DNA of 64,000 nucleotides from a virus. The notes below the pieces were generated by a model. It saw only the letters and a list, made by a program, of their open reading frames with translations, had not been told where the DNA came from and made no database searches. Positions 749-60,945 of the stretch are shown in pieces. The DNA lies in IMG/VR virus record IMGVR_UViG_3300045988_183539. The stretch is one strand, 5' to 3'. Positions within the stretch are counted from its first letter, which is position 1. The number at the start of each line of letters is the position of its first letter. The position numbers and the translations under genes were made by a program.

Positions 749-3217
749 ATGGGATTTGGTAAAAAAAATAAAAATAATATAAATACTGTTGATAATGAAC
801 AGAATAAAAATAAAAAGAAAACTAATAAAAAGAAGATTAAAATACCTAAAACAGTTCAAGATACTTTAGATTGGGAATGTGTTTTTGAAAATGGTGTTTT
901 TCAAATAGGTCCTAAAAGATTTTCTAAAACTTTTTATTTTGAAGATATTGCTTTTAAAACAAAATCTGATGAAGACCAGATGGCTATTTATCAGGCATAT
1001 TTAAGATTTCTTAATTCTATAAATCCTGATGAAGATTTATTTATTACTTTTGTTAATTATAAAGATGATGAAAATGCTAAGTTAGCGGCAATCCTTCCTA
1101 TAAATAAAGATGATGGCTTTAATAATTATAGAAAAGAATTAGGAACTATTTTAAGAAATAATATTAAATTAAGTAGAAATGCTATATCTACAAAAAGATA
1201 TATTACTGTTTATGTAAATGCAGATACAGTTGATAATGCAATGTTGAGACTAAATGAATTAGAAACAACTTTAGAAAATGCTTTTAAAAAAATATGTGGT
1301 GCAAAATTAACAGCCATATCTTTAGAAGAAAGATTAGAAGTTATTAATAATATTTTAAATGGCACAGATGAAGCAAACTATTGGTTTGTACACGATAAAA
1401 CAGGAAAAACAACTATAGATTTTAAAGAAATGGCAAGACAAAAGCTTACTACTAAAGATATTATAGCTCCTCAGTCTATGAAATTTTATAGTAATCGTTT
1501 TGAAATTAATGAAAGAATAGGACAGGGAATGTATCTTGATAATTTAGCAAACTGGATGGATACTAATTTTTTACCTAGTCTGATAGCTGTTAATTTTGAG
1601 TCAGTTTTTACTATTCATATATCTGCATTAGAGCAGACAGAAGCAATAAAGAAGGTACATAATAAATCTATTAATATAAATGCTGAAATAGAAGATAAAA
1701 TGGATGCAAGAGCAGCAAAAGGCAAAGACCCTACTTTTATTAATGCAGATTTAAGAAAAGCACAGGCTGAAATAGAAGATTTACAAAATGATATTCAAAA
1801 CAGAGACCAGAAATATTTCTTTATGGATATGTCTATTATTCATTTTGCAGAAAATAAGCAGATTTTAAAAGAACAAGAAAAAATAATAAAAAATAGTGCA
1901 AATAAATATATGTGTTCGATAAAACCAGCTTTAGAACAGCAGGAAAGATGTCTTATTAGTACATTACCTTTGGGTCATAACAAAATGTTCCAGACAAGAG
2001 GTCTTACTACAGAAAATTTAGGAGTTTTCTTACCTTTCGATGAGATAAACCAGTTTGATGTTAATGGTATTTATTATGGAGTAAATGCTATTAATAAATC
2101 TTTAATAGTTTATGACAGAACAAAAGGTATGAATTATAATGGTTTAATTTTTGGTGCTTCTGGTTCTGGTAAATCTTTTAGTGCTAAACGTGAAATAACA
2201 AGTGTTCTTCTTAATAAAAATGCAAATTGTTATATCATAGACCCAGATGATGAATATACACCTATTGCAGATGCATTTGGTGGAACTATAATTAAAATAT
2301 CACCTGGTAATGGTGTTTATATAAATCCCTTCGATTTAGATATAGATACATCTGCTGATAGTGATTTAAACCCTATTACTATGAAGATAGATTTTATTTG
2401 TGGTTTGCTGGAAACAATGATAGGAAATAATGCTAAATTATCTCCAACACAAATTTCTATTGTTACTAGATGTGTACAACAGATATATAGACCTTATTTA
2501 GAGCATTTACAGGAACTCCCTCCAGACGAAAATGGTAGAAAACGTACTATAGATAGAGATTATTGTCCTACAATGCAGAATTTATTTGATGCTTTAATTA
2601 ACCAGCCTCAATCAGAAGCTCAAAACCTTGCCTTAATTATGGAAACATATACAGCAGGAGCATTTGATACATTTGCTCATAGAACAAATGTAGATATAGA
2701 TAATAAGTTTATTATTTTTAATATATCTAACATTGGTACAAACTTAAAAGAATTAGGTCTTAAAATTTGTGTAAACCACGTCTGGAATAAAATGGTAGAA
2801 AACAGAAGAAATAAGAAATGGACTTGGTTTTATATAGATGAATTCCATTTACTTCTTAAGAGCCATTCGACATCAGATTTCATAATGTCTATTTTTAAGA
2901 GAGCTAGAAAGTTCTTAGGAGTTACTACAGGTATTACGCAAAATGTTGGAGATTTACTTAGAACAGAAGATGGACAAGCTATTATTAATAATACATCTTT
3001 CATTTATATGTTAAATCAATCAGCAATGGATAGATATGATTTACAAAAATTATTAAAACTGTCTGATGGAGATGTTGAATATGTTACAAATGTAGAACAA
3101 GGTCACGGTCTTATTTATACAGGAACACAGACAATACCATTTTCTGATGATTTCCCAGAAGATACTAAGTTATATGATATTATGACAACTAAACCTAAAC
3201 AAGAGGAAGTTGCGTAA
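749..3217 (+). CDS. VirB4-like conjugative transfer ATPase (TcpF/Orf16/TrsE class)
   Basis: 822 aa; Walker A GASGSGKSF, Walker B WFYIDEFHLLL, with size and domain order of Gram-positive VirB4 homologs. AAAGGA RBS. Confidence 0.8.
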   Translation: MGFGKKNKNNINTVDNEQNKNKKKTNKKKIKIPKTVQDTLDWECVFENGVFQIGPKRFSKTFYFEDIAFKTKSDEDQMAIYQAYLRFLNSINPDEDLFITFVNYKDDENAKLAAILPINKDDGFNNYRKELGTILRNNIKLSRNAISTKRYITVYVNADTVDNAMLRLNELETTLENAFKKICGAKLTAISLEERLEVINNILNGTDEANYWFVHDKTGKTTIDFKEMARQKLTTKDIIAPQSMKFYSNRFEINERIGQGMYLDNLANWMDTNFLPSLIAVNFESVFTIHISALEQTEAIKKVHNKSININAEIEDKMDARAAKGKDPTFINADLRKAQAEIEDLQNDIQNRDQKYFFMDMSIIHFAENKQILKEQEKIIKNSANKYMCSIKPALEQQERCLISTLPLGHNKMFQTRGLTTENLGVFLPFDEINQFDVNGIYYGVNAINKSLIVYDRTKGMNYNGLIFGASGSGKSFSAKREITSVLLNKNANCYIIDPDDEYTPIADAFGGTIIKISPGNGVYINPFDLDIDTSADSDLNPITMKIDFICGLLETMIGNNAKLSPTQISIVTRCVQQIYRPYLEHLQELPPDENGRKRTIDRDYCPTMQNLFDALINQPQSEAQNLALIMETYTAGAFDTFAHRTNVDIDNKFIIFNISNIGTNLKELGLKICVNHVWNKMVENRRNKKWTWFYIDEFHLLLKSHSTSDFIMSIFKRARKFLGVTTGITQNVGDLLRTEDGQAIINNTSFIYMLNQSAMDRYDLQKLLKLSDGDVEYVTNVEQGHGLIYTGTQTIPFSDDFPEDTKLYDIMTTKPKQEEVA

Positions 3218-3281: not shown

Positions 3282-3365
3282 ATAGAATAAACATTTATTT
3301 ACAATTAATAAAAAAATAATAGGACATTATTCTATATATATAGTTTTTTTTGAAAGGAAGTTTTT

Positions 3366-8703: not shown

Positions 8704-8869
8704 CTAATGTTGTTTTTAATAAAAACACTTATATTAAAAAAATAAATGGATTTTATATATTTTTAAATCTATATTTTTACTTTTCTACATTATTATTTTA
8801 TCTCTTAAAAATATTAAAAATAAACATTTTATTTACAATATTTATAATGTTTATAGAAAGGTAAAAAGA

Positions 8870-10468: not shown

Positions 10469-10576
10469 TATAATAAAAAAACAATATATCTTATAAAAAA
10501 TAATATTTTATAAGATATAAATAAAACACCTTAAATAATTTTAGACACCATTATTATTATTTGAGGTGATTTTTTT

Positions 10577-11443: not shown

Positions 11444-11526
11444 CAACGCTTTTTTACACTTAACTACATTATTATTATAAAACTGTTTAATGGTTTTATA
11501 TTTTAATGAATAAAGGAGTAAAATAT

Positions 11527-14374: not shown

Positions 14375-14420
14375 TAATGAATTTGTCTTACATTTTCGCA
14401 TTATTATTATAAATAAAAAA
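14375..14420 (+). promoter_or_regulatory. terminator-proximal promoter cassette (family member)
   Basis: cattttcgcaTTATTATTATAAATAAAA matches the recurrent TTtACTTT-n-CACAyTATTATT-rTAtAAA module. Confidence 0.4.
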
Positions 14421-15802: not shown

Positions 15803-15920
15803 TGATAAAAGGTAGTCTATATAATAGATTACCTTTACTTTTTGTAATAAATAGGATTATAATACAAACATTAAAAGTTTTTAGATAAAGTCGTAAATAT
15901 TAAATTAAGGAGAGTGAATT

Positions 15921-20701: not shown

Positions 20702-20788
20702 TTTATGTACCATTTAACATCTATTAAGAATGAGTTTAAAAAACTATTTTCTTAATAGGTGTTTTTTTGTTGTTAAAAAAGTGTACAT

Positions 20789-20822
20789 TATTTTTACTTT
20801 TCCACATTACTAGATATAGAAA
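20789..20822 (+). promoter_or_regulatory. promoter cassette family member
   Basis: TTTTTACTTTTCCACATTACTAGATATAGAA. Confidence 0.35.
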
Positions 20823-20877
20823 CAAAAAAAATAAAACAACTATATATTGTTTTTTTATAGAAAGTGATGTGATTAGT

Positions 20878-21408: not shown

Positions 21409-21496
21409 GGGAATATTTTTTTTGTAAAAAATATTACTTTTTTTTGCTTAAAAAAAAATCAATTGCATTATTTTTATATAATCATTAATTAAATTA

Positions 21497-21517
21497 ATGA
21501 TTACTCCTTTCTTTTTG
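21497..21517. promoter_or_regulatory. perfect 9-bp inverted repeat ATCATTAAT-TAA-ATTAATGAT
   Basis: Seen directly; lies in the 260-bp intergenic region beside the tRNA-like fragment. Confidence 0.4.
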
Positions 21518-25905: not shown

Positions 25906-26017
25906 GATTAGGAGTAATTAACTCTTAATCTTTTTTTATAATTTATTGTTAAAAGTCGCAATAATTAAATAAAACTACATTATTATATTTATATTAAAAA
26001 TAAAGAAAGGTGTAAAA

Positions 26018-30001: not shown

Positions 30002-30303
30002 ATTAATAAAATACCTTTCTTTGTGTAATAAATATATGTATATGTATGTTTTATATATTTTAAATTATAATAATAATGTCTTTTATTTTATAAATTGTTT
30101 AAATTTTGATGTATATTTTTTGACATTTTTACATTATTATTAAAAACAAAAAATATGATATAAAATATTATTATTTAATTAAGAAAGAAAAATATTATAA
30201 TTATATTTGACAGTAGTAAAATACAGATTTATAAATATAATTAAAGATATTTAATATAAAAATATCCCAAACTATTAATTATATAAAAAGAAAGGAAAAT
30301 ATT

Positions 30304-30783: not shown

Positions 30784-30889
30784 ATATCTTTATAAAGAAA
30801 GACTGTATATTGATTATTTAAATAAAATCAATAACACAGTCTTTTTATTATTTTTACAAAAAAGTGGTTTTTATTATCTTAAAAGTGTG

Positions 30890-30930
30890 CTTTTTTTTCA
30901 CTTTAGCACAATATTATTTTATATTAAAAA
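30890..30930 (+). promoter_or_regulatory. promoter cassette family member
   Basis: TTTTTTTTCACTTTAGCACAATATTATTTTATATTA. Confidence 0.4.
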
Positions 30931-32788: not shown

Positions 32789-32904
32789 TATTAAATATAT
32801 AATTTTGATTATAGGCACTAATTAATATTTTAGTTAGTGTCTATTTTTATATTTATATAAAAGATTGAAAATTTTTTTTACTTTAGAAAAATTAAAATAT
32901 ACTA

Positions 32905-32940
32905 TTTTTTATCTTTTTTACACTATTATATAAAACAATA
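32905..32940 (+). promoter_or_regulatory. promoter cassette family member
   Basis: TCTTTTTTACACTATTATATAAAACAATA. Confidence 0.4.
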
Positions 32941-36698: not shown

Positions 36699-36750
36699 AA
36701 AATATTATTAATTTAGATTAAAAGTAAAAGAACTCTTGAAAAAAAGGGTT

Positions 36751-36790
36751 CTTTTTTTTACTTTTACCACACTATTATAGTATAGATAAA
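36751..36790 (+). promoter_or_regulatory. promoter cassette family member after a hairpin terminator
   Basis: TTTTTTTTACTTTTACCACACTATTATAGTATAGATAAA. Confidence 0.4.
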
Positions 36791-40832: not shown

Positions 40833-40935
40833 TTTATTTTAAGGAAATTTTAAAATAATGATTAAAAATAAGAATTCTATATATCCATTATTATTATATA
40901 TTTCAATTGTATAAAAAAAGGAGTGAACTTTAATT

Positions 40936-41727: not shown

Positions 41728-41770
41728 GTATTTTTTTTAACTTTTTCCCATTATTATTATAAGAATTTTT
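41728..41770 (+). promoter_or_regulatory. promoter cassette family member after a hairpin terminator
   Basis: TTTTTTTTAACTTTTTCCCATTATTATTATAAGAATTTT; a second extended -10 TGGTATAAT lies at 41806. Confidence 0.4.
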
Positions 41771-43972: not shown

Positions 43973-44003
43973 TGATAATATAAATAATACAATTGTGAGC
44001 TTA

Positions 44004-44042
44004 TTTTTATAAAAAAATAGGCTCTTTTTTTATATTTGCAAC
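44004..44042 (+). terminator. rho-independent terminator
   Basis: gagcttat...ataggctc + T7. Confidence 0.55.
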
Positions 44043-44098
44043 AATATTATTATATAAATTAATTATTTAAATATGTCTAATGGAAAGGAAGATATAAT

Positions 44099-44449: not shown

Positions 44450-44545
44450 ATGGAGAATACTATGCATACTAACATATAAGCTTTTTATGTTTAAGTATGC
44501 CATATATAAACAGATAAAATAATTTTATTAGAGAGATGAAAAATA

Positions 44546-45136: not shown

Positions 45137-45153
45137 TAAAAAAAGGAGAAAAT

Positions 45154-45684
45154 ATGAACTATAATATTATTATTACTTTAATGTTAATTATTCCTATACT
45201 AATGTTTTGTATTTATTATTGTTTTGCAGGAATAAAAGAAGAAAATATATGGGATAATCCATCAATAGATAGAGGATGTATATGTGCAATTATTGGTTTT
45301 ATTAACTTTGTATGTTTTGTAGCATTTGAGATTAATAATAGTATTTTTACAACCATACTGATTATTATTGAAGTTCCTATTTTAATATGGACTGTATTTA
45401 CAAAATGTTTTAATAAATTTGAAAATAAAAAAAGGTTATATAACGAATTGTTATATATATATAATCAGGAAGATTTAACTGATTTTAAAAAGCATATGAC
45501 ACGAAAAGAACAAATAGAGTTTCTTAAAAGTATTAAGATTGAATGTTTGGATAGAACCAGAGAAGAAAATATAAATAGTGATGGAGAAAAAGTTGTTACA
45601 ACTAAGGATATTTACCAATATATCCCATTAATCGAAAATGAAGAAGATTTAGAATATTGGGAAGATATTTTAAGAAAGGAATAA
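45154..45684 (+). CDS. membrane protein (three TM helices) with soluble C-terminal domain
   Basis: AAAGGAG RBS. Confidence 0.45.
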   Translation: MNYNIIITLMLIIPILMFCIYYCFAGIKEENIWDNPSIDRGCICAIIGFINFVCFVAFEINNSIFTTILIIIEVPILIWTVFTKCFNKFENKKRLYNELLYIYNQEDLTDFKKHMTRKEQIEFLKSIKIECLDRTREENINSDGEKVVTTKDIYQYIPLIENEEDLEYWEDILRKE

Positions 45685-45687
45685 CTT

Positions 45688-45981
45688 ATGACTTTTAAAG
45701 AAGCAAGAAAACAAGCAAGAGAAATAGCTATCAAAATAGACCATTGGTGTTATATGTATAAAGATAGTGGAAAAAATAATTATTACGTTTCAAAGAATGT
45801 AGATTATAGTGCTGACCCCAAAACAAGTTATTATGTACATAAAAGCGGAAAAATTATAAATATGTATCTTTATGAAAAAATAAATAAAAACCTTAAAAAA
45901 AGAGGTATATACACTTATCCATTCTCTCCTGTAATTATGTATCAAGTAAAAAGCTTTAGAAAAGAAGTTTTAGGTAAGTGA
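45688..45981 (+). CDS. hypothetical 97-aa protein
   Basis: ORF track. Confidence 0.45.
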   Translation: MTFKEARKQAREIAIKIDHWCYMYKDSGKNNYYVSKNVDYSADPKTSYYVHKSGKIINMYLYEKINKNLKKRGIYTYPFSPVIMYQVKSFRKEVLGK

Positions 45982-46256
45982 AGGAGCGTTTTATGATAAA
46001 AGACAAAATAGAAGAAATTATAAAAAAATATTATCATTTATCAGATGATTATTATAGTGAATATAGATATGATAAGAATAATATAGAATATAATATTAAA
46101 GATGAATTAGAACAGTTTTGTATTAAAAATAGACTTCTATATAAAGTTAAAAAATGTGTTGACCCAGATAAAGAAGCATATAGTAGTGATTTACTTATAT
46201 TAACATTTATAGATAAAAATAATGAACTTCAATTATATACTATTTATATAATTTAG
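45978..46256 (+). CDS. hypothetical 92-aa protein
   Basis: 4-nt overlap with the previous gene. Confidence 0.4.
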   Translation: MKERFMIKDKIEEIIKKYYHLSDDYYSEYRYDKNNIEYNIKDELEQFCIKNRLLYKVKKCVDPDKEAYSSDLLILTFIDKNNELQLYTIYII

Positions 46257-46743
46257 AAAAATTTTTACAAAAAAGAAAAAATTATGAATAAAAATGATAT
46301 AAAAAAGTACTACATACTACAGTGTGTTTTATTGTATATGGTTTATTAGAGAAAATGGATAATGATTATGTAAGAATTTACGAAAATTCAAAAGATGATA
46401 AATATAGTTTTAAAGGTTCTTATTGGATACATTTTAAAGACATATATAAAACTCAAGATGAGTGTATTAAGGGGTATTAAAATTAAAGATAATATTATTG
46501 TTGATAAATATAAAGCTGAAATTGTTGATTTATATAGTTTTATTAAATTTCCACTTGAATATTCTTTTAAAAATGAAGAATTTACTGATTATAATGCTAT
46601 CAGAGCTTATAAGAAAAGAGCTGCTGGTTTTATATGAGTAATTATATAAGTAAAGATGACAAAAAATATATTTATATCTATTTTATAGAAGAGATGTGTT
46701 ATTAGTAGATTTATGGTTTATTTTTGAAAGGAAAATATAATTT

Positions 46744-47051
46744 ATGAAAGATGAAAATAATAAAAAGATATTGGTTATTTTAATAATTATATTATAAGCA
46801 GCATAATAGGGTTTACTTATTTTATTTATAACTCAAAGAAAACAGCTAAAGAGAATGCTATAAAATATGAAGAAGAAAAAGACAAACCAGAATTTAACGC
46901 TCTTACTAAAGAAAATATTTCTATTTATAAATTATCAGATACAGAAAATACAGAATATTTTATAAAATTCTCTGATACATATTTTGGCTCTAGTAATTAT
47001 TATCCAATAGGTACAAAATTGCCTGAAGATATTATTTTATCAAAAAATTAA
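46744..47051 (+). pseudogene. small secreted/membrane-anchored protein gene disrupted by a frameshift near 46790-46800
   Basis: MKDENNKKILVILIIIL* continues in the +1 frame as SIIGFTYFIYNSKKTAKENAIKYEEEKDKPEF...ILSKN*. Confidence 0.35.
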
Positions 47052-47069
47052 AAAAATAAAGCTCAATTA

Positions 47070-47285
47070 ATGATTATTAATGACAAAGTATTTATGATTG
47101 AAAGTAGAAGAATATCTGGTAGTGCAGGTGATGGTCATAATTGTAGTGTTGGATTATGGAATATAACTGAAATAATAAATGAAACAGATAAGAATAATAT
47201 TATCAATGAATTATTAAAAGATAATAATAATTATTATAAAATAAATACATCTGATTTAGTAAAAGATGAAACATTATTAAAATAA
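47070..47285 (+). CDS. hypothetical 71-aa protein
   Basis: ORF track. Confidence 0.35.
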   Translation: MIINDKVFMIESRRISGSAGDGHNCSVGLWNITEIINETDKNNIINELLKDNNNYYKINTSDLVKDETLLK

Positions 47286-47330
47286 TTATAATACATTTTT
47301 AGAAAGGGATTATTATTAAAAATAATCTCT

Positions 47331-47365
47331 TTTTTTATACTTTAATACACTATTATTAAAAGATG
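47331..47365 (+). promoter_or_regulatory. promoter cassette family member
   Basis: TTTTTTTATACTTTAATACACTATTATTAAAAGAT. Confidence 0.4.
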
Positions 47366-47393
47366 AAAAACTTATTTAAGGAGAAGTTAAGAT

Positions 47394-47603
47394 ATGAATT
47401 TATTAGAGTGTTATGTTGAAAAGATATATTCAAAAACAGATATTACAGAAGAATATCGTAAAAAGGTAAATAACGCTATTACAGAAAAATATTATCTTGT
47501 TGATATGACTTATAATAGTTATGGTTCAGTTACCAGAACAAAAAAGATGATGAGTGAAAGTGAGTATAATAAGATGATAGAAAAAGGATATTTTATAGGA
47601 TAA
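47394..47603 (+). CDS. hypothetical 69-aa protein (first gene of a 4-gene operon)
   Basis: AAGGAGAAG RBS. Confidence 0.45.
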   Translation: MNLLECYVEKIYSKTDITEEYRKKVNNAITEKYYLVDMTYNSYGSVTRTKKMMSESEYNKMIEKGYFIG

Positions 47604-47613
47604 GGAGAAAAAT

Positions 47614-47865
47614 ATGGAATTTAATAACGAAATAGTAGAATTTATTAACAGATATAGCAATATAAAAGTAGAGTACAATAATACAGAAAATGTAATTAAA
47701 AATATAGATATGTTGCATAAAGATATTTTAAAAAATTTAGATTTACAGAAAGAAATTTCAAGAGAAGAAAGAAATATTATTTGCGATGAAATAATTCTTG
47801 CTACAGGAGCTTTGGAAAGAATTAAGAATATATTAAATGATAATTTAAATGATAGTATAGATTAA
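47614..47865 (+). CDS. hypothetical 83-aa protein
   Basis: AAGGAGAAAAATATG RBS. Confidence 0.45.
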   Translation: MEFNNEIVEFINRYSNIKVEYNNTENVIKNIDMLHKDILKNLDLQKEISREERNIICDEIILATGALERIKNILNDNLNDSID

Positions 47866-47882
47866 AAGGAATATATAATTTT

Positions 47883-48362
47883 ATGAAAACTAAGAAAACA
47901 CTAAAATTAGAACAAGATATATATAATGCTACAAAGAAAGTGGGAGTCTTTGGATGTTTTGAAGTGACAATAGGTTTCTTTGGTAAAGAAAGAGTAGATT
48001 ATATGACATATGATACAAAAGGTATTTTTAGATGTTATGAAATAAAAGTAAGTAAGTCTGATTTTCATAGCAATGCTAAATTAAGTTTTGTAGGTCATTA
48101 TAATTATTATGTCCTTACAAGAAAATTATACGAAGAGGTTAAAGATGAAATACCTGATTGGGTTGGTGTTTATGTAGGAGAGAACCTTGTAAAATCACCT
48201 AAAAAGCAAGATATAGACGAAAAGGTATATAAATATAGAAGAACAATAAATGGTCGCTCTAGTGAGCTTACAATACCTTATAAAGAGATGTTAAAAGAAA
48301 GTATTATTAGGTCTCTATACAGAGATGCAAATAAATGGTATATTTATAATTATCAATTATAA
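47883..48362 (+). CDS. PD-(D/E)xK nuclease-fold protein (VRR-NUC/Hjc-like)
   Basis: GVFGCFEVTIGFFGKERVDYMTYD...FRCYEIKVSKSDF has the core beta-strand order with D...E-x-K. Confidence 0.45.
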   Translation: MKTKKTLKLEQDIYNATKKVGVFGCFEVTIGFFGKERVDYMTYDTKGIFRCYEIKVSKSDFHSNAKLSFVGHYNYYVLTRKLYEEVKDEIPDWVGVYVGENLVKSPKKQDIDEKVYKYRRTINGRSSELTIPYKEMLKESIIRSLYRDANKWYIYNYQL

Positions 48363-48378
48363 AGGTGGTATATATACT

Positions 48379-49176
48379 ATGATGATAGCTTTAACATATA
48401 GATGTAATATGGGATGCACTCATTGTATTTCAGATTGCAAACCAGATGGAATAGATATGAGTAAAGACACTCTTATTGATAGTCTTGATTTTATAAATAA
48501 ACATAAAATAAAAGCAATATTGTTTTCTGGCGGTGAACCATTTGAGCATCCAGATATTATATCTTTACTTGATGTTATAGAAGAAAAATTAGATAAGAAT
48601 ACCCCTATTACCTTTGCTACAAATGGAAGAGTTTTAGCAGATAATATTGAAATTTATGAAAAAGTATCTGAATTAGTTAAGAAGAATAAGAAAAGAATAA
48701 TCATACAGGTAACAGATGATGATAGATTTTACCCTACTAAACTTAATGAAAAGCAAAGATATAGACTAGAAAAGATAGGTGCTGTTATAGAAGGTGTTCC
48801 TAGCTATGTTTCTGATAGAAATAAATGTTTATATCCACAAGGTAGAGCTTTAGATAATTTTGATGAATCTTTTTATTATACTATTGCACCTAAATGCGTT
48901 AATATACGATTATTAGTAAGACAGAATATAAATAAAATATCTAATATATGTGATACATTGCTTATGAGAGGAAAGATGTGTACTCCAGTAATTGCTCCTA
49001 ATGGTATGCTAAAAATAGGAGAGTCAGCCTTGTGTCCTGAAGTAGCTTCAATTTATGATAATGAAAAAGATATTATAAATAAAATATCTCATTTTAATTG
49101 TAATAAATGTACATATGCACTTGAACAATTAAAGAAAAATAATCTACCTGCTTATAATCTATTAATAAAGGAGTAA
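48379..49176 (+). CDS. radical SAM enzyme with Cys-rich SPASM/twitch-like C-terminal domain
   Basis: CNMGCTHC (CxxxCxxC), FSGGEPFEHPD, C-terminal CVNIRLL...CDTLLMRGKMCTPV...ALCPEV...NCNKCTYA. AAAGGTGG RBS before ATG 48379. Confidence 0.6.
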   Translation: MMIALTYRCNMGCTHCISDCKPDGIDMSKDTLIDSLDFINKHKIKAILFSGGEPFEHPDIISLLDVIEEKLDKNTPITFATNGRVLADNIEIYEKVSELVKKNKKRIIIQVTDDDRFYPTKLNEKQRYRLEKIGAVIEGVPSYVSDRNKCLYPQGRALDNFDESFYYTIAPKCVNIRLLVRQNINKISNICDTLLMRGKMCTPVIAPNGMLKIGESALCPEVASIYDNEKDIINKISHFNCNKCTYALEQLKKNNLPAYNLLIKE

Positions 49177-49178
49177 TT

Positions 49179-49700
49179 ATGGGAAATTATTATAAAGGAA
49201 ACATCCGATTTATATTAAGAAAAGATTTACCAGAGTTTATAATAGATGCTTTATTATTTATACAAGATAAAGATTTTAAAATGCCTAAAAAATAATCAGG
49301 AATAGATATTTTTAATGAAGAAAATAGAAATAAGGTCAATATTGATTTTTCTGCTATAATAGATGATATAGATAATACTATGTTTATAGATAAAGATAAT
49401 TATAAATATATTACTAATATATATAAAAATCAAATTGTTGGATATGAATTATTTGTTTCAGTAATACTCAATGGTAAAAATAATTATAATGATTTAATTG
49501 ACAAATGGTATTCTTTCTTTAAAGATTACATAGATATTTCTTTAAGCAAAGAATGCTTTACAGTTAAAAATGATAATATTCTATTAGGAGAAGTTCACGA
49601 TGAAGATGGTACTTATGATAGATATTATCTTCTAAATACCCCATATATTATTTCAAATTTACAAAAATATATAAATTATGAAAATGATTATGAGGTATAA
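49179..49700 (+). pseudogene. gene with strong RBS interrupted by an in-frame TAA at 49293-49295
   Basis: AAGGAG RBS before ATG 49179. 49179 and the track ORF 49380-49700 share a frame (difference 201 nt). Only one stop separates MGNYYKGNIRFILRKD...KMPKK from SGIDIFNEEN... Confidence 0.4.
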
Positions 49701-49719
49701 ATAAGCTTAAAATATGTCT

Positions 49720-49760
49720 TTTTTTTCACTCTTTCGCATTATTATTGTATAAATAAAAAA
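49720..49760 (+). promoter_or_regulatory. promoter cassette family member (clearest copy: TTCACT-17-TGTATAAAT)
   Basis: TTTTTTTCACTCTTTCGCATTATTATTGTATAAATAAAAAAGGAG. Confidence 0.45.
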
Positions 49761-49772
49761 GGAGATAAAAAG

Positions 49773-49952
49773 ATGAAAAAGATTAGATATGCGATTGAAA
49801 AAGTAATAGAAGTTCCTGAAACAGAAGGGGAAGAGTCAATTAATAATATAATCCGCAGAAGATGTGAAGAAGAAGGTGGATTAGATTATATTTATACAAC
49901 AGAAGATGATATGAAGAAAAATAGATGTAAAAGTTTGTTTGATAATATTTAA
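49773..49952 (+). CDS. hypothetical 59-aa protein
   Basis: AAGGAG RBS; just under the track cutoff. Confidence 0.4.
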   Translation: MKKIRYAIEKVIEVPETEGEESINNIIRRRCEEEGGLDYIYTTEDDMKKNRCKSLFDNI

Positions 49953-50005
49953 GAATTGTTTTACAAAAAGCCGCAGGAATAAGAATAAAAAAAGGAATAT
50001 AAAAA

Positions 50006-50284
50006 ATGATAAAATTAAAAATAGGTAGAAAAATCTATGAATTAGATAGTAAAGATATAATTTTAGACAATGGTGTCAGCTATCAGATTATTACTCAAAA
50101 AGATACAAAAGGATTTAGTTGGTCTTATCCTGTAATGAGTAAGAAACTTTTCAATAATTTAAAAAAATCTGAATTGATTTTTACAAATGAAGAGTTACAA
50201 CAGGCAGCTATAGAAGAATATAATACTCAAATTATAACTTATTGGAAATTCAATATAACCAAAATGAAAGAATTAGGTTATTAA
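50006..50284 (+). CDS. hypothetical 92-aa protein
   Basis: AAAGGAATAT RBS. Confidence 0.45.
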   Translation: MIKLKIGRKIYELDSKDIILDNGVSYQIITQKDTKGFSWSYPVMSKKLFNNLKKSELIFTNEELQQAAIEEYNTQIITYWKFNITKMKELGY

Positions 50285-50313
50285 AAAATCACTTTTTAAT
50301 GAAAGGAAAATAT

Positions 50314-50706
50314 ATGACATTAAAAGAATTAGAGTTTCTTAAGAATATAAATAAAATCAATGAATTAATAACAGCAAAGGATTTACTAAATACAAAAGAC
50401 AGAACATTACTTTATGGCTATATGTGTACAAGAGAAACATTTCACGTATATTTAAAAAATAATGAAATTCATACTGTTATATACAGTAGAGATTATAGTG
50501 AAAATAGTATAAAACCTAAAAATATGAGAGAAATATCAATAAAATCAAACGATAATTATATACCAGATAAAAGGCTATACCCTGAAACTTGTGATTATGA
50601 ATTTTGTGTATTATTAAAAGAAAGAGATATTTATTTACCATTCACTACCTACGATGAAAAAAGACCTTTGCGTAACTACTATGGATTTACTTTAGAGGAT
50701 ATATAA
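50314..50706 (+). CDS. hypothetical protein
   Basis: AAAGGAAAATATATG RBS; track start 50242 lacks an RBS. Confidence 0.45.
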   Translation: MTLKELEFLKNINKINELITAKDLLNTKDRTLLYGYMCTRETFHVYLKNNEIHTVIYSRDYSENSIKPKNMREISIKSNDNYIPDKRLYPETCDYEFCVLLKERDIYLPFTTYDEKRPLRNYYGFTLEDI

Positions 50707-50811
50707 TGAAAGATTGTTTTTAATAACAGAGTGAAGAAATAAAATAGGCAATATTCAAAAAATAGAAGAGTTATGTTATTAAAAAATTATTTTTAATAGG
50801 AGGTTTGTATT

Positions 50812-51108
50812 ATGAATATATTATTATCTGATGATGAAATTATACAAAAAATAAAAATGTATCCTGTTCCTAACTGGATATGGATTGAAATATGGGAAAT
50901 GTCTCAATATGAGATACAAGTTGTAATTACTGTGAACAAAGAAGAAATGTGTCATCTGGCAGACCATATAGTTATTCATACTTGTTCGGCTCAAACAGAT
51001 AATGAGAATGATATAATTGAATTAAAAACATATGGAGGATTAATAGTAAAACTAATAAGAAAGAATTTTCCGAATAGTAATGTTCATAGCAGACTTTATT
51101 ATAGATAA
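50812..51108 (+). CDS. hypothetical 98-aa protein
   Basis: GGAGG RBS. Confidence 0.45.
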   Translation: MNILLSDDEIIQKIKMYPVPNWIWIEIWEMSQYEIQVVITVNKEEMCHLADHIVIHTCSAQTDNENDIIELKTYGGLIVKLIRKNFPNSNVHSRLYYR

Positions 51109-51585
51109 AAAATGTTTTTATATAAAATAGTAGAAGGCGATAAATATGAAATGTAAATGTGTAAAAAACTCACATAATAATAGTAATTTTAATTTAGAGC
51201 ATATTTATAAAGTTGAAGAAAATATTGGCATATAGCCTCCAATATTATGCAGATTTAGGTATTGAGATAATCCCAGCACATTATTTAAAAGAATGATTTT
51301 TGAATTTGCTATGTGTAAATTTGAAGTAATATAATAATATTTATGATATTTTATGAATATTATACATTAAATAAAGTAAGGAATGATTTATATATAGAGT
51401 AATTTATAAATTTTACAGTGGTGGTTATAAAATAAGTGATAAAATGAGCTTAGAAGATGCCAGAATTTTTAAACTAAAATGTTTAGAAATGTATTATAAA
51501 GAAGATGAAGTTTATATTATACAAATAATAGAATAAAAATATATTAAAAATCCAGTTTTATACGAAAAGGAGAACTAAAAATAAA

Positions 51586-51924
51586 ATGAATAAACCTCCA
51601 ATATATGAATGTTCAAATTGTTATAATGAATTTTCAGAACAATTATATCCTGTAAATATATCGAATGTCAGATGGGTGAATCTGATATGCGACAAATACC
51701 CAAACGGTTGTATTCAGATAAGCTGTTATGATGCTCAAGAAAATGCTTATTATGCAACGAAACTTTTAAAATGTTATGTGAGTAAGAAAGGCAGATATGC
51801 AATTTGGGGTAAACATAGATTTTATGAAGGATATAGCGGTGGTCTTATATTGAGAGGTGTTCCGTATAAGTCTATTGAAACTATAAGAGATGCGGCTAAA
51901 CCGTATGGAACGATAGTAGAATGA
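51586..51924 (+). CDS. hypothetical 112-aa protein with N-terminal CxxC...C pattern
   Basis: AAAGGAGAA RBS; YECSNCYNEF. Confidence 0.45.
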   Translation: MNKPPIYECSNCYNEFSEQLYPVNISNVRWVNLICDKYPNGCIQISCYDAQENAYYATKLLKCYVSKKGRYAIWGKHRFYEGYSGGLILRGVPYKSIETIRDAAKPYGTIVE

Positions 51925-51943
51925 AAGAATGATTTAAAAGAAG

Positions 51944-52258
51944 GTGTTTAAAATTAGAACAGAAACAAAAGTAATAAAGTTATTATTAAAAGAATTATAT
52001 CCAAATGAAACATTTTCAGTACATCTAAAACAACCTTATTCATATATTAGTAACTCAGACAAAATAAAAATAAAATGTCCTAAATCAACAAATAAAAAAG
52101 ATGTAATTAGTATATTGAAAAAATATGTATATGGTATTGATGTTTATGAAAAAGGAAGTTTTGGGTATATAAAACATATTGATAATACACCATATATCAT
52201 CTTAATGAATGGTGAAAAAATAGATATGGATATGGTTGAATTTATTGAAGTAGAGTAA
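51944..52258 (+). CDS. hypothetical 104-aa protein
   Basis: ORF track. Confidence 0.4.
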   Translation: MFKIRTETKVIKLLLKELYPNETFSVHLKQPYSYISNSDKIKIKCPKSTNKKDVISILKKYVYGIDVYEKGSFGYIKHIDNTPYIILMNGEKIDMDMVEFIEVE

Positions 52259-52281
52259 GGCAATAAAAGAGGTGATTAAAA

Positions 52282-52569
52282 TTGTGGAAAAGGTCTTTAG
52301 ATATTTTTCCTAGTGAATACATTAATCCAGAACACGAAAACGAATTAAATAACGAATTAGAGCTTGGAGATTTTGCAAAAGTTATAGTTGACTCTCAATT
52401 TCAAGATAAATATGAAGATGGTTCTCAATTTCCAAGATTTTTAGGATTAATAGGAAAGGTGATTAATATTAATATATCTGATGAATGGTCTTATCAATTA
52501 TTATTTGAAGATGGATTAACAAATTGGTTTAAAAGATATATTTTAGAAAAACAAATAATAGATGTTTAA
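52282..52569 (+). CDS. hypothetical 95-aa protein (TTG start); truncated paralog at 53083-53184
   Basis: AGAGGTGA RBS. KRSLDIFPSEYI is repeated as KRPLDIFPEEWI in the 33-aa ORF at 53083. Confidence 0.4.
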   Translation: MWKRSLDIFPSEYINPEHENELNNELELGDFAKVIVDSQFQDKYEDGSQFPRFLGLIGKVININISDEWSYQLLFEDGLTNWFKRYILEKQIIDV

Positions 52570-52639
52570 AATAAAAATAGAAGTAAAGATATTGTTAAAA
52601 TAACCTTTATTTTATGTTTTTTAAAATAAAAGGATGATA

Positions 52640-52887
52640 TATGAAAATTATAGAGACAGATTTGAAAGATTTTTCAGATAATGATACTAAAGCCTTTTAT
52701 TTAGAAAAAAGAAGGACAATATACAATCTCTGAATTCATAGAGCTTTTACAGGCGGCTAAAGAAAAATTTGGTGATAAAGAAATTTTAATCCACGATATG
52801 AATGATGGATGTTTATACGGATTTTCTCATATATATTTAAATAAAGGAAATAATGAAGAAGATAGTGCTATATGTATATATGCATAA
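52640..52887 (+). pseudogene. small gene disrupted by a frameshift in an A6 run near 52700
   Basis: MKIIETDLKDFSDNDTKAFYLEK... stops, then continues in the +1 frame as GQYTISEFIELLQAAKEKFGDKEILIHDMNDGCLYGFSHIYLNKGNNEE... Confidence 0.3.
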
Positions 52888-53249
52888 ATTAAAAAGGAGA
52901 AAAAAATGGATTTATAGATATATTATAAAATAGATAATGATTTATATTTTGATAAATATGAAGTGACTTGTTCTTGTTCTGATAATTTGTATTACGCATC
53001 TAATATAAATGATAATCAGTATCGTATAAAAACATAATAATATTGATTTAGACTAATAGTTTGGTTAAGATTGGAGTATCATATGGATAAGTTAGATAAA
53101 AAAACATACATAAATATTGTTAGAAAAATTATGAAAAGACCTTTAGATATTTTCCCTGAAGAATGGATAATAAGTGTTTTATAATAAGCTGATGATAAGA
53201 TTTATAATAAAAAGTGATAAAGAGAGATTTAATACAGGTTTCTCTTTAT

Positions 53250-53285
53250 TTTTTTTTACTTTTTCACACTATTATATATAGATTA
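53250..53285 (+). promoter_or_regulatory. promoter cassette family member
   Basis: TTTTTTTTTACTTTTTCACACTATTATATATAGATT. Confidence 0.4.
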
Positions 53286-53407
53286 AGAAAATTAAGATTT
53301 ATGGAGAGTCAAAAGTAAGCCAGCAATTTAGATTTGAAAGATATTTCGGATGATAATAATAATAAATTAAATAAAAACTGAAACTATTAGAAACAAGAAA
53401 ATCTTAT

Positions 53408-53470
53408 CTAACAGAAAGGAGAATCGCTTCTCCCCTCAGCTAAAGCTAAGGGGTTTCAGCGATTAATTGA
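53408..53470 (+). ncRNA. GC-rich nested hairpin element in the 5' leader of 53478
   Basis: GGAGAATCGCTTCTCCCCTCAGCTAAAGCTAAGGGGTTTCAGCGATT holds mutually exclusive stems (ggagaa/ttctcc; cccct/agggg; aatcgct/agcgatt) in 28% GC DNA. Confidence 0.35.
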
Positions 53471-53477
53471 TGGAGTT

Positions 53478-54146
53478 ATGAAAAATATAAGTAAAAAGAA
53501 ATCATTCTGGAAGGAATTTTTTAATGAGTGTTATGGAGTGATAGCATTCGGAGCAATTACGATATCTATTGTTTTATCTGCCATTGTAGGAAATCTGATA
53601 TTGCCATGTATAAATAATGGAGAGGCAATAAATCCGTATATAGAAGATGTAAGCGGTAAGTTTACATTATTTGTAATAAAAACAGCCATAGGCGGTTTGT
53701 ATTTATTTGGTGTTATTTTCATACTATTAACTGCTTTTTCTATTATAGGCATAATTGTAATAAACTTAGTAACTGGAATAACGCATATACTAGCTGTAAA
53801 AAGATATACATACCTGCCATTAACAATAGATGAAGTAAAAGAAGCTATAAATGTAGGATTATTTGAAGATACTCCTGAAAGCTATACAGATTATCTTGCA
53901 AAACAGATGAAGTATTTTGGTGGCAGTGTAACCTTTTCAGTTGATGATATGAAAATGATAATAAAAACAATAAAAGCAATATGGAATCAATCCTTTAAGC
54001 TTAATAAAGATTTTCTTATTAGAAATAAAATAGAAAGTTATCATCAGCTTCCATTTGGACTTAAGGATGACAGAGCCGATTTATTTTGCAAATTAGAGAA
54101 AAACCAAACAGTATCTTTTGATATGAACGACGTTTATTTCATTTAG
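53478..54146 (+). CDS. polytopic membrane protein
   Basis: 222 aa, four or more TM helices. Confidence 0.5.
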   Translation: MKNISKKKSFWKEFFNECYGVIAFGAITISIVLSAIVGNLILPCINNGEAINPYIEDVSGKFTLFVIKTAIGGLYLFGVIFILLTAFSIIGIIVINLVTGITHILAVKRYTYLPLTIDEVKEAINVGLFEDTPESYTDYLAKQMKYFGGSVTFSVDDMKMIIKTIKAIWNQSFKLNKDFLIRNKIESYHQLPFGLKDDRADLFCKLEKNQTVSFDMNDVYFI

Positions 54147-54237
54147 AACATCAGGTGAAAAGCTGTTTGCATTTAGGCATGAAATTAAGGAAGTTCGTGC
54201 TTTTGTTGCTAGTAAGAGAAAGGAGAAACAATATAAA

Positions 54238-54624: not shown

Positions 54625-54721
54625 TTTGTATAAAGAGAAAGAAACTATGATTTTTGCAACAGGAGAAAATAATACTCTTATAGATAATATAACCATAGAT
54701 TAATAGAAAGGTAAAACTATT

Positions 54722-55610: not shown

Positions 55611-55814
55611 TAGGATTAAGATAATATGAATATAAAAGTGAGGAAGAAGACATATGACAGATATATTAAAATTAAGATGTTATATGGATGAAACATCTAC
55701 TCCTTATAATGAAAATGAAATTCAAACATTAAATATTAAAGAAGATGATTAATTTAAAAATTTTATCAATATAATTTTAAAGCTGGTGTAAAAGATATAT
55801 ACATCAGCTTTTAT

Positions 55815-55850
55815 TTTATTTTTATACACTATTATTATAAAGATATAAAT
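55815..55850 (+). promoter_or_regulatory. promoter cassette family member
   Basis: TTTTATTTTATTTTTATACACTATTATTATAAAGATAT after the agctggtg...catcagct hairpin. Confidence 0.4.
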
Positions 55851-56685: not shown

Positions 56686-56745
56686 TTTCTAAAAAAATTT
56701 CTAAAATTCTAAAAAAGTCTAATAAATACTCTAAAAAGATTTCAC
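56686..56745. repeat. iteron-like direct repeats (TCTAAAA(A) x4) upstream of the primase-helicase gene; candidate replication origin
   Basis: TTTCTAAAAAAATTTCTAAAATTCTAAAAAAGTCTAATAAATACTCTAAAAAG. Confidence 0.4.
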
Positions 56746-56812
56746 TTTATAACATTATTTTTATAAAAGAAAAAATAACAGAAGTAAAAAAATAAGAAAG
56801 GAAAGATTTATT

Positions 56813-56956
56813 ATGATTGATTTAAATAATATGCCAATAGATGAACTTAAAAAATATTTATCAGAAAATAATTTATCTATCGTATGTGAAGATGGAAAGA
56901 TTGTTTCTACTGTTTTAGAAAAAGAAGCTGATTTTGAAGACGAAAAAGAAATTTAA
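56813..56956 (+). CDS. hypothetical 47-aa acidic protein
   Basis: AAGAAAGGAAAG RBS; absent from the track because of size. Confidence 0.3.
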   Translation: MIDLNNMPIDELKKYLSENNLSIVCEDGKIVSTVLEKEADFEDEKEI

Positions 56957-57001
56957 CAACATTATTATTAAAAAAAATACAAATGAGAGGAGTATCTGCT
57001 A

Positions 57002-60872: not shown

Positions 60873-60909
60873 AAGGGCTGTTTTTTAAGACAGAACCCTT
60901 ATTTTTTTT
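60873..60909 (+). terminator. rho-independent terminator
   Basis: aagggctg...cagaaccctt + T8. Confidence 0.55.
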
Positions 60910-60945
60910 CACTTTGAGACAATATTATTGTATAAAGTGATATTG
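60905..60945 (+). promoter_or_regulatory. promoter cassette family member
   Basis: TTTTTTTTCACTTTGAGACAATATTATTGTATAAAGTGA. Confidence 0.4.

What the first reader, a model, noticed from the sequence alone, without database searches (positions are those of the whole stretch)
49700..49765. Element-wide terminator-promoter cassette: TTtACTTT-n-CACAyTATTATT-rTAtAAA repeated at least 14 times
At least 14 gene starts carry a near-identical ~35-nt block: 8771, 11449, 14375, 20789, 30890, 32905, 36751, 41728, 44036, 47331, 49720, 53250, 55815, 60905. Each block sits directly 3' of a hairpin + T-run terminator and 40-60 nt upstream of an RBS and ATG. Copy 49720 reads TTCACT-17 bp-TGTATAAAT, a sigma-A-like promoter with extended -10. 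The spacer CACA(C/T)TATTATT is conserved far beyond what sigma-A requires. That suggests a shared operator for an element-encoded regulator, or a promoter class read by an alternative factor. Nearly every accessory gene or mini-operon is thus an insulated unit with the same switch, which is unusual and points to coordinated control.
Basis: seen in the sequence. Interest (0 to 1): 0.75.

Follow-up and report, generated by a model that had tools for sequence, protein, structure and literature searches.

The report
Shared promoter of a gut conjugative element
A short DNA signal repeated about 22 times in this mobile element is a real, direction-specific promoter signal whose core is shared, in clade-specific versions, by a whole family of uncharacterised gut conjugative elements, which suggests these elements use their own dedicated way of switching on transfer and cargo genes together.

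Summary
All 14 cited blocks exist. A PWM finds 15 strong copies on the + strand and none on the - strand, against 0.16 expected. About 7 weaker copies and one - strand copy ahead of the - strand gene block bring the total to about 22. The window is part of a large Bacillota-type conjugative element (PrgI, VirB4, T2SSE) that is common in human-gut metagenomes. The "spacer" CA-N-TATTAT is the element that is conserved across relatives. ICEs with 65-80% identical VirB4 and 27-45% GC carry (A)CACTAYT upstream of genes on the transcribed strand, including back-to-back copies at divergent promoters. More distant clades carry sister versions (TACATATA, TTCATATAT, GCATAATA). In higher-GC relatives no TATAAT-like box follows the core, and ribosome-binding sites start 3-7 nt after it, so the core is initiation-proximal. 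The best reading is a family-specific promoter class that ties T4SS and cargo operons into one regulon, read through a specificity factor that co-evolves with the element. No sigma factor, polymerase or regulator was found, so the mechanism stays inferred. The closest precedent is the establishment regulons of pLS20/p576 plasmids.

The parts
49718..49765 (+). Focal copy: T-run, TTCACT, CTTTCG, core CATTATTAT (49737-49745), TGTATAAAT, then SD AAGGAG and ATG at 49773. No convincing upstream hairpin.
   Evidence: PWM 43.3; leave-one-out 36.8
8768..8806 (+). Strong copy, core CATTATTAT at 8788, upstream of the M20-like 532-aa gene
11447..11485 (+). Strong copy, core at 11467, upstream of the 608/615-aa acidic-repeat protein
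14379..14417 (+). Strong copy, core at 14399, preceded by a terminator hairpin
20785..20823 (+). Degenerate copy (TTTACTTTTCCACATTACTAG), anchor 20805, upstream of the YdjM-like gene
   Evidence: PWM 18.9
30112..30150 (+). Plus-strand half of a divergent promoter hub.
   Evidence: PWM 27.1
30060..30098 (-). [quoted passage not shown] Lies back-to-back with 30132.
30889..30927 (+). Strong copy, core CAATATTAT at 30909, upstream of the 83-aa + flotillin operon
32901..32939 (+). Strong copy, core CACTATTAT at 32921, upstream of a radical SAM gene; terminator at 32811-32844
36726..36788 (+). Terminator hairpin 36726-36755 directly abutting a strong copy, core CACTATTAT at 36770
41729..41767 (+). 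Strong copy, core at 41749, after a terminator hairpin; upstream of the 714-aa gene
43997..44060 (+). Terminator hairpin 43997-44024 abutting a strong copy, core CAATATTAT at 44042 (no TTTAC part)
47328..47366 (+). Strong copy, core CACTATTAT at 47348, after a terminator hairpin
53247..53285 (+). Strong copy, core at 53267, after a terminator hairpin
55807..55845 (+). Strong copy, core at 55827, after a terminator hairpin
60900..60938 (+). Strong copy, core CAATATTAT at 60920, after a terminator hairpin
3300..3340 (+). Weaker A-tract-type copy (AAAAAAATAATAGGA CATTATTCT), core at 3325, just after VirB4. Orthologous to the post-VirB4 CACTATT site of relatives (L161:12501, L020:12570).
10530..10560 (+). 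Weaker copy, core CATTATTAT at 10549, upstream of the Amidase_3 gene. The SD GAGGTG starts 5 nt after the 9-mer. Orthologous sites in L158:20839 and L161:20691.
21440..21510 (+). A-tract-type copy GCTTAAAAAAAAATCAATTG CATTATT TTTATATAATC, core at 21466, followed by the palindrome TCATTAATTAAATTAATGA. Upstream of the second T2SSE operon; closely resembles the T4SS-operon promoter (L001:7824).
25960..25995 (+). Weaker copy, core ACATTATTAT at 25978, after terminator 25904-25932; upstream of the PIF1-like helicase
40866..40904 (+). Weaker copy, core CATTATTAT at 40886, after terminator 40786-40821
56733..56771 (+). Weaker copy TTTCACTTTATAACATTATTTTTATAAAAG, core at 56753
   Evidence: (PWM 11.6)
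56940..56978 (+). Weaker copy, core ACATTATTAT at 56960, 42 nt upstream of the 890-aa helicase gene
15834..15863 (+). Contrast: canonical sigma-A-like promoter (TTTACT-18-TATAAT) without the core, after terminator 15808-15836
749..3217 (+). VirB4-like conjugation ATPase, used to define the element family and its clades

Best explanation
The block is a promoter. The asymmetric core CA-N-TAT-T (window lineage CA[C/T/A]TATTAT) lies immediately upstream of the transcription start, preceded by an A- or T-tract and, in this AT-rich lineage, by TTTAC about one helical turn upstream. The same core, in clade-specific versions, precedes the T4SS operon, the T2SSE operon and the variable cargo operons in a whole family of uncharacterised Bacillota conjugative elements. 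Transfer genes and cargo therefore form one regulon. Intrinsic terminators in front of many copies insulate the units from each other. The version of the core tracks element phylogeny. It does not track host base composition, and it does not look like a sigma-A -10/-35 pair. The most likely reader is therefore a specificity factor that co-evolves with the element: a divergent sigma-like protein, or less likely an activator or a dedicated polymerase. That factor would itself be expressed from one of the ordinary sigma-A promoters of the element. Shown here: the motif, its strand and position rules, its family-wide conservation with clade-specific variants, and the tight spacing to ribosome-binding sites. 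Inferred: promoter activity, the start-site position, and the existence and origin of the factor.
For: (1) Enrichment and strand bias in the window: 15 strong + strand sites, 0 on -, 0.16 expected. (2) Orientation follows transcription. The only - strand intergenic copy in the window precedes the - strand block. In L018, L019, L157, L181, L239 and L240, - strand cores lie in divergent intergenic regions ahead of - strand operons, back-to-back with + strand cores. All other - strand hits are inside genes. (3) Family-wide conservation. In relatives with 65-72% identical VirB4 and 31-45% GC, 21 of 24 + strand CACTATT lie outside ORFs, where about 1 is expected. In further loci 8 of 8 are intergenic. 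CACTATT is the top de novo intergenic 7-mer. Orthologous sites are kept at the T4SS-operon, post-VirB4 and amidase promoters. (4) Clade-specific code: the table of variants against clades is diagonal, with CA[ACT]TATTAT 35 intergenic / 7 coding, CACTAYT 31/5, TACATATA 18/8, TTCATAT 15/19 and GCATAATA 7/1, each enriched only in its own clade. (5) Not sigma-A-like. No consistent -35/-10 pair occurs in higher-GC relatives. Host-type promoters in this bacterial group are canonical TTGACA / TG-n-TATAAT (PMC5171806). Canonical promoters without the core coexist in the window. (6) The start site is adjacent to the core: the SD begins 3-7 nt after it at L019:4130, L239:6850(-), L240:7430(-), L240:1520 and window 10549. 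Short hairpins begin 0-10 nt after the core at the T4SS promoter in nine lineages.
Against: No trans-factor was found. No sigma, RNA polymerase or activator family appears among about 40 window ORFs, 93 flank ORFs of 13 relatives or 85 ORFs of distant relatives (Pfam), nor in NCBIfam, PDB sequence searches or polymerase-motif screens. Only +-10 kb around VirB4 could be read in relatives, and the ends of the window's element were never reached. No transcription data were available, so promoter activity and start sites are inferred. In the window lineage the core contains TATTAT, a good sigma-A -10 (5 of 6, with A-11 and T-7). Some higher-GC sites have TTGAnn 16-21 nt upstream of the core. So host sigma-A, possibly with a helper, is not excluded.
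Confidence: 0.5

Rival explanations
1. Host sigma-A promoters that share an operator for an element-encoded repressor, as in the p576 Reg or IncP KorA/KorB regulons. The conserved core is the operator, overlapping or adjoining the -10. Promoters fire on entry into a new cell and are shut off once the repressor accumulates.
For: There is a direct precedent. In pLS20-family plasmids, variable establishment genes sit in several operons, each preceded by a conserved promoter flanked by Reg operators (PMC8708921). In the window lineage a sigma-A-compatible TATTAT lies inside the core, and T-rich/TTTAC sequence lies upstream. A clade-specific sequence is expected if repressor and operator co-evolve. 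Lineage-specific palindromes just downstream of the T4SS-operon core could be operators. An ImmA-like M78 peptidase gene lies 2 kb upstream of the T4SS operon (L001).
Against: The core is a single asymmetric 7-9-mer with no dyad or direct repeat. In 39-45% GC relatives 14 of 20 sites have no sigma-A-like -35/-10 pair, and none has a -10 where a 'spacer operator' model needs it. No repressor candidate is conserved near the T4SS genes. The T4SS and T2SSE operons carry the same core, not only establishment-type cargo.
Confidence: 0.25
2. Ordinary constitutive sigma-A promoters. The similarity reflects copying of one successful terminator-promoter module within the element, together with AT-rich sequence constraints, with no dedicated factor.
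For: TATTAT is a near-consensus -10. T-runs can act as UP-like elements. The element is a mosaic in which cassettes come and go between variant contigs.
Against: Similarity stops at the edges of the block; the hairpins and leaders differ. The core is kept at orthologous promoters across relatives with 65-80% identical VirB4 and 27-45% GC, while the flanks diverge. CACTATT is a poor sigma-A -10 and has no consistent -35. Different clades hold different fixed versions. Cassette breakpoints do not coincide with the block.
Confidence: 0.15
3. A non-transcriptional signal on one DNA strand: a priming or single-strand initiation site for the transferred strand, a single-stranded-DNA promoter of the Frpo type, or a cassette recombination site.
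For: The copies are strand-specific, spaced every 2-4 kb, and often next to hairpins. Nearly all genes point one way, as in plasmid leading regions. DnaG-type zinc-ribbon proteins occur in relatives.
Against: The orientation flips with gene direction at divergent promoters, which a transferred-strand signal would not do. The hairpins are short, GC-rich terminator-type stems upstream of the block and do not contain it. Copies sit at a regular short distance upstream of an SD and ATG. Breakpoints between variants are mostly far from the block.
Confidence: 0.05

Closest known systems
Establishment regulons of pLS20-family conjugative plasmids (EGeRS1 of pLS20; EGeRS2 / Reg-controlled promoters of p576), PMC8708921
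   Same: A Gram-positive conjugative element in which many variable, mostly unknown or anti-defence-type genes sit in several small operons. Each operon is preceded by the same conserved regulatory sequence, and that repeated sequence is what reveals the regulon.
   Different: In those plasmids the repeated unit is either a ~600-bp region or a canonical sigma-A promoter flanked by palindromic Reg operators, and the conjugation genes are in a separate operon with different control. Here the unit is a ~35-nt block with a 7-9-nt asymmetric core at the -10 position. It also precedes the T4SS and T2SSE operons, no repressor is known, and the core is shared with clade-specific changes across a whole ICE family.
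Promoters with a single extended -10-region element read by dedicated sigma factors of mobile elements or competence systems (T4 late promoters TATAAATA with gp55; streptococcal ComX cin-box TACGAATA with upstream T-tract; pBS32 SigN) - recalled from general knowledge, not tested here
   Same: A conserved 7-9-nt element at about -10, no consistent -35 hexamer, an upstream A/T tract, and many co-regulated units.
   Different: No cognate sigma gene has been found here. The sequence differs from all of these. The start site appears closer to the conserved element than is usual for sigma-70-family promoters.
T7/SP6-type single-subunit RNA polymerase promoters (T7 ...GACTCACTATAG, SP6 ...GTGACACTATAG) - recalled from general knowledge
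   Same: The relatives' core (A)CACTAT(T) matches the -7 to -1 segment. There is an AT-rich tract upstream, and the start site is apparently within a few nt of the core.
   Different: The segment corresponding to the -12 to -8 specificity region is not conserved. The base after the core is mostly T, then A, not G. No polymerase gene (Pfam RNA_pol, catalytic motifs) was found in any sequence examined.
Global operator networks of broad-host-range plasmids (IncP KorA/KorB, IncW ArdK/StbA) - general knowledge
   Same: One short sequence repeated at many promoters coordinates transfer, maintenance and establishment genes.
   Different: Those operators are palindromes bound by dimers next to normal sigma-70 promoters. 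Here the core is asymmetric and replaces a normal -10.

Membership tests
   The proposed -10 is TATAAA, TATAGA or TATAAG (no T at -7) in most of the 15 copies. In 20 sites from 39-45% GC relatives, none has a sigma-A-type -10 at that offset. Such matches are at shuffle frequency in the window.
   Present in only 2 of 15 copies (49737, 60920).
Sigma-A promoter in an alternative register (core itself as -10: CAnTAT or TATTAT) | A at -11 and T at -7 kept; a -35-like hexamer 16-18 bp upstream | tested here: inconclusive
   TATTAT (window lineage) and CAnTAT both keep A-11 and T-7. But the -35 position is only T-rich. In higher-GC relatives TTGAnn lies 16-21 bp (mostly 19-20) upstream, and in only a minority of sites.
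Shared-operator regulon (p576 Reg, IncP KorA/KorB type) | The same short sequence at many promoters of one element | tested here: met
   About 22 copies in the window, with more in the flanks.
Shared-operator regulon (p576 Reg, IncP KorA/KorB type) | Dyad symmetry or repeated half-sites, next to an otherwise complete sigma-A promoter | tested here: not met
   The core is asymmetric and single-copy. No complete sigma-A promoter accompanies it in higher-GC relatives.
Shared-operator regulon (p576 Reg, IncP KorA/KorB type) | Cognate DNA-binding repressor encoded by the element | tested here: inconclusive
   The only HTH in the window is HipB-like, next to a HipA-like kinase. An ImmA-like peptidase is present in L001. 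Nothing is conserved across the family within +-10 kb of VirB4. The element ends were not reached.
Alternative-sigma, -10-only promoter class (T4 gp55, ComX type) | Conserved extended -10-region element without a conserved -35 | tested here: met
   Logos of 32 and 34 independent sites; offset test.
Alternative-sigma, -10-only promoter class (T4 gp55, ComX type) | Cognate sigma factor gene | tested here: not met
   No Sigma70_r2/r4 or related family in any ORF set scanned. Coverage of the elements is incomplete, and very divergent sigmas can escape Pfam.
Alternative-sigma, -10-only promoter class (T4 gp55, ComX type) | Transcription start 5-8 nt downstream of the element, dependent on that sigma | not testable with these tools
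   No transcriptome or biochemical data. SD positions only bound the start to within about 3-7 nt after the core.
T7/SP6-type single-subunit RNA polymerase promoter | Contiguous ~17-20-bp conserved sequence, including the -12 to -8 specificity region, with an initiating G | tested here: not met
   Positions just upstream of the core are variable (..c..a). The first bases after the core are T then A.
T7/SP6-type single-subunit RNA polymerase promoter | Element-encoded single-subunit RNA polymerase | tested here: not met
   No PF00940-type hit and no motif A/B/C pattern in large ORFs. The DYDTD motif of the 615-aa ORFan is a tandem acidic repeat.
Single-stranded-DNA promoter or ssi signal of plasmid leading regions (Frpo type) | Promoter boxes formed inside a long hairpin of the transferred strand, with orientation fixed by the transferred strand | tested here: not met
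   The hairpins are short terminator-type stems upstream of the block. The orientation flips with gene direction.
Cassette recombination site (integron attC-like) | Cassette boundaries coincide with the repeated site | tested here: not met
   Breakpoints between variant contigs are mostly hundreds of nt from the block or inside genes.
Intrinsic terminator preceding the block | GC-containing hairpin followed by a T-run | tested here: met
   Convincing for about 9 of 15 strong copies. The scanner finds + strand terminators above shuffle expectation, several of them abutting copies (9 vs 2.3; 6 vs 2.4). Not met for the focal copy.

The most novel reading that the evidence does not exclude
This prevalent family of gut Bacillota conjugative elements carries its own transcription system. 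A highly divergent sigma-like protein or a non-canonical RNA polymerase, invisible to current profile libraries, would read a start-site-adjacent CA-N-TAT core. The geometry and sequence resemble T7/SP6 promoters. Such a system would let the element express transfer and anti-defence cargo independently of host promoter recognition, with the promoter code diverging between clades.
Probability: 0.15. Interest if true: 0.85.

Novelty: new variant of a known kind. Interest (0 to 1): 0.58.

Why it matters
If the reading is right, one short sequence marks the complete regulon of a very common but uncharacterised human-gut conjugative element: its T4SS, a second secretion ATPase module and dozens of unknown cargo genes. 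That gives a practical way to delimit such elements and their co-expressed cargo in metagenomes. The motif version could be used to sort elements into compatibility or regulatory groups. The finding also points to an unidentified specificity factor, which would be a handle for switching transfer on or off. The clade-specific promoter code across hosts of 25-45% GC is a clean natural experiment in the co-evolution of a promoter and its reader. For annotation, it warns that sigma-A-style parsing of AT-rich DNA is unreliable, since such matches occur at chance frequency here.

Tried and rejected
(1) Near-identity searches of 25 kb against the phage and plasmid collections found nothing useful. 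A protein search of plasmids gave only relatives of <=36% identity, named 'VirB4-like conjugal transfer ATPase, CD1110 family'.
(2) The genome collection scan with the VirB4 protein found nothing. IMG/VR gave 16 single hits. So the host and the host-wide frequency of the motif remain undetermined.
(3) My first PWM missed the relatives' motif because it was fitted to the AT-rich T-run context. The core was found only by reading orthologous intergenic regions.
(4) No tRNA or Rfam family lies in the window.
(5) The search for a trans-factor was negative throughout: Pfam at E<=1 on 30 window ORFs, Pfam on 93 and 85 flank ORFs, NCBIfam on the compact relative's unknowns, PDB sequence searches of four large ORFans, and polymerase-motif regexes.
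(6) The 121-aa first gene of the T4SS operon is VirB2-like, not a regulator.
(7) The DYDTD motif of the 615-aa ORFan looked like a two-barrel polymerase signature, but it is part of a 3-4-fold tandem acidic repeat. I ran no further search on it.
(8) The cassette-junction hypothesis was rejected by breakpoint mapping.
(9) Matches to known alternative-sigma consensus sequences (sigma-E/K/G CATA-type, sigma-H, sigma-54, ECF, TcdR family) were considered from memory. None fits both the sequence and the spacing, so none is claimed.
(10) Two literature searches found no description of this motif or of an ICE-encoded sigma for such elements.
Full report
**What the window is.** The 64-kb window has about 25% GC, and nearly all genes are on the + strand except a block at 27.5-30.0 kb. 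ORF 749-3217 is a VirB4/TraG-type conjugation ATPase, preceded by a PrgI-like gene. The same proteins, residue for residue, are on record in 70-260 assembly blocks, mostly human-gut metagenomes. They sit on contigs of 58-481 kb, never above 1 Mb. The rest of the window holds T4SS accessories and a long one-directional array of small ORFans. Interspersed are radical SAM enzymes, two PIF1-type helicases, a flotillin, Thg1-like, NT5C and HipA-like proteins, and others. Named relatives of the ATPase are at most 36% identical and are called 'VirB4-like conjugal transfer ATPase, CD1110 family', from Bacillota. Relatives at 65-68% identity sit in chromosomes, next to DNA polymerase III alpha and next to plsX-acpP-rnc-smc. 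So this is a large integrative conjugative element, or a close relative of one, from an uncharacterised branch.

All 14 cited blocks are there. I anchored them on the C of the invariant CA-N-TATTAT and built a PWM. It finds 15 + strand sites scoring >=19 and nothing on the - strand above 14. Leave-one-out scores of the training sites are 16-37. Dinucleotide shuffles of the window give on average 0.16 hits >=15 on both strands together. Seven weaker copies share the core in + strand intergenic DNA: 3325, 10549, 21466, 25978, 40886, 56753 and 56960. [quoted passage not shown] Copies continue beyond the window on both sides and in variant contigs, giving 31 distinct 46-mers. Similarity ends at the edges of the block, and the hairpins and leaders differ.

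- A convincing hairpin plus T-run precedes about 9 of the 15 strong copies, and not the focal one.
- Of 43 + strand gaps of at least 60 nt, about half carry a copy.
- At least three gaps carry canonical sigma-A-like promoters without the core.

**The decisive evidence comes from relatives.** Loci with 65-72% identical VirB4 have 31-45% GC and gave no PWM hit. Reading their orthologous intergenic regions showed a shorter shared core, (A)CACTAYT. In five such loci, 21 of 24 + strand CACTATT lie outside ORFs, where about one is expected. In further loci from a metagenome scan, 8 of 8 are intergenic. CACTATT is also the top intergenic 7-mer found de novo. The T4SS-operon promoter keeps the arrangement A-tract, 7-9 nt, core in every lineage, including the window's own: L001:7824, AAAAAAAAATCATTAG-CAATATT.

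Loci at or below 61% identity lack CACTATT but carry sister motifs in the same positions. These are T-tract + TACATATA, TTTTCATATAT, ATAGCATAATA and TGACATATTA. The table of variants against clades is diagonal. The motif therefore follows the phylogeny of the element across hosts of very different base composition.

**It behaves as a promoter element.** Wherever a relative has the T2SSE operon on the - strand, a - strand core lies in the divergent intergenic region ahead of it, back-to-back with the + strand core of the T4SS operon. A second divergent pair exists upstream of the coupling-protein region. All remaining - strand matches are inside genes. Breakpoints between variant contigs do not coincide with the block, which rules out a site-specific cassette junction.

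- Sigma-70-type hexamer pairs occur in this DNA at shuffle frequency.
- The proposed -10 mostly lacks T at -7.
- In 20 sites from 39-45% GC relatives, none has a sigma-A-type -10 at the required offset, and 14 have no sigma-A-like pair at all. The only mildly enriched registers put the -10 on the core itself.
- Shine-Dalgarno sequences begin 3-7 nt after the core at five sites in four loci, including window 10549 and the orthologous pair L239:6850(-) / L240:7430(-).
- Short hairpins of unrelated sequence begin 0-10 nt after the core at the T4SS promoter in nine lineages.

Together these place the transcription start within a few nucleotides of the core. The 'spacer' is then the -10- or initiation-proximal recognition element. 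In a Lachnospiraceae species, primary promoters are canonical TTGACA / TG-n-TATAAT (PMC5171806). The core is not what host sigma-A normally reads.

**Mechanism.** The best-supported reading is a family-specific promoter class that joins transfer genes and cargo operons into one regulon, with terminators insulating the units. It would be read through a specificity factor that co-evolves with the element. I could not find that factor. Pfam, NCBIfam, PDB sequence searches and motif screens of more than 200 ORFs were all negative. A polymerase-like DYDTD motif turned out to be a tandem acidic repeat. Only about 10 kb on either side of VirB4 could be read in relatives, and the ends of the window's element were not reached.

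The main rival is a sigma-A promoter with an overlapping operator for an element repressor, as in the p576/pLS20 establishment regulons (PMC8708921). It is weakened by the asymmetry of the core and by the lack of sigma-A boxes in higher-GC relatives, but it is not excluded. In the window lineage in particular, the core contains TATTAT. The resemblance of (A)CACTAT(T) to the -7 to -1 part of T7/SP6 promoters is noted only as a lead. The specificity region and the initiating G are not conserved, and no polymerase gene was seen.

**Verdict.** This is a new variant of a known kind of organisation, a repeated regulatory sequence defining a conjugative-element regulon. Its unusual features are the start-adjacent asymmetric core, the inclusion of the T4SS genes, and a clade-specific code across a prevalent gut element family. 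Interest is moderate to good, and would be high if a dedicated transcription factor or polymerase were found.

Noticed in passing
L018:8086-8101, L019:8073-8087, L157:7958-7979, L020:7748-7768, L158:7852-7880, L181:7923-7941; window 21484-21502: A short hairpin or palindrome begins 0-10 nt after the core at the T4SS-operon promoter in most lineages. The stem sequences are unrelated (z -1.1 to -4.1). The window's second T2SSE promoter has the perfect palindrome TCATTAATTAAATTAATGA. It could be a 5'-terminal mRNA stem-loop or a lineage-specific operator.
   Followed up: partly
window 11527-13353: The 608-aa ORFan conserved next to the T4SS is an acidic repeat protein with 3-4 tandem modules YYE(D/E)YDTD..EF....WI.DY. 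It has no Pfam or PDB match. It may be a DNA mimic or anti-restriction-type protein.
   Followed up: partly
window 39076-40781: A HipB-like HTH (144 aa) plus a HipA-like kinase (417 aa), a toxin-antitoxin-type pair. It is driven by a canonical TATAAT promoter without the shared core. A further HipA_C gene lies beyond the window (L015:18693-19907).
   Followed up: partly
window 21990-24597 and L001:6290-7582: There are two T2SSE-family (VirB11/PilB-like) ATPase genes. The second is followed by a 499-aa protein with about 6 predicted transmembrane segments, which suggests a second secretion or pilus module in the element.
   Followed up: no
window 27527-30001 (- strand): The only - strand block encodes a RuvC-like resolvase (188 aa), a 343-aa protein with a faint SprT-like hit and two small ORFans. 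In variant contigs (L010, L011) the adjoining + strand region is replaced by five other genes.
   Followed up: no
L016 versus window 42619 / 57526; L013:12944-14077: The variant contigs differ by large rearrangements. One variant joins 42619 to 57526, apparently fusing the 714-aa gene to the 890-aa helicase gene (a 637-aa product). Another carries an IS605-family TnpB insertion.
   Followed up: partly
window 32015-32691: Part of the flotillin-like gene is 83% identical at the DNA level to a 4.4-kb 'Bacteriophage sp.' contig from human faeces (MT839289.1). This was the only nucleotide hit in the phage collection.
   Followed up: no
L239:3095-4909, L240:1-1485, and HD/HD_5 proteins in 6-7 relatives (e.g. 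L240:16721-17308): Relatives of the element carry GGDEF and HD-type (possibly HD-GYP) proteins. Window ORF 17578-17994 has a weak RsiG-like (anti-sigma) hit (E 0.019). This hints at cyclic-di-GMP signalling within the element family.
   Followed up: no
L239:2857 (- strand): An intergenic - strand core is followed 2 nt later by ATG and an open frame reading MDETSPHIHAVITP. The frame resembles a relaxase histidine motif and has no Shine-Dalgarno sequence. It could be a gene remnant or a leaderless transcript.
   Followed up: no
L193, L195 (36% VirB4 identity) and L192, L194, L200, L201: Distant T4SS relatives have their own recurrent intergenic motifs (ATAGCATAATA; TGACATATTA). A 'CA-start' -10-like element may therefore be a general trait of this T4SS superfamily.
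   Followed up: partly
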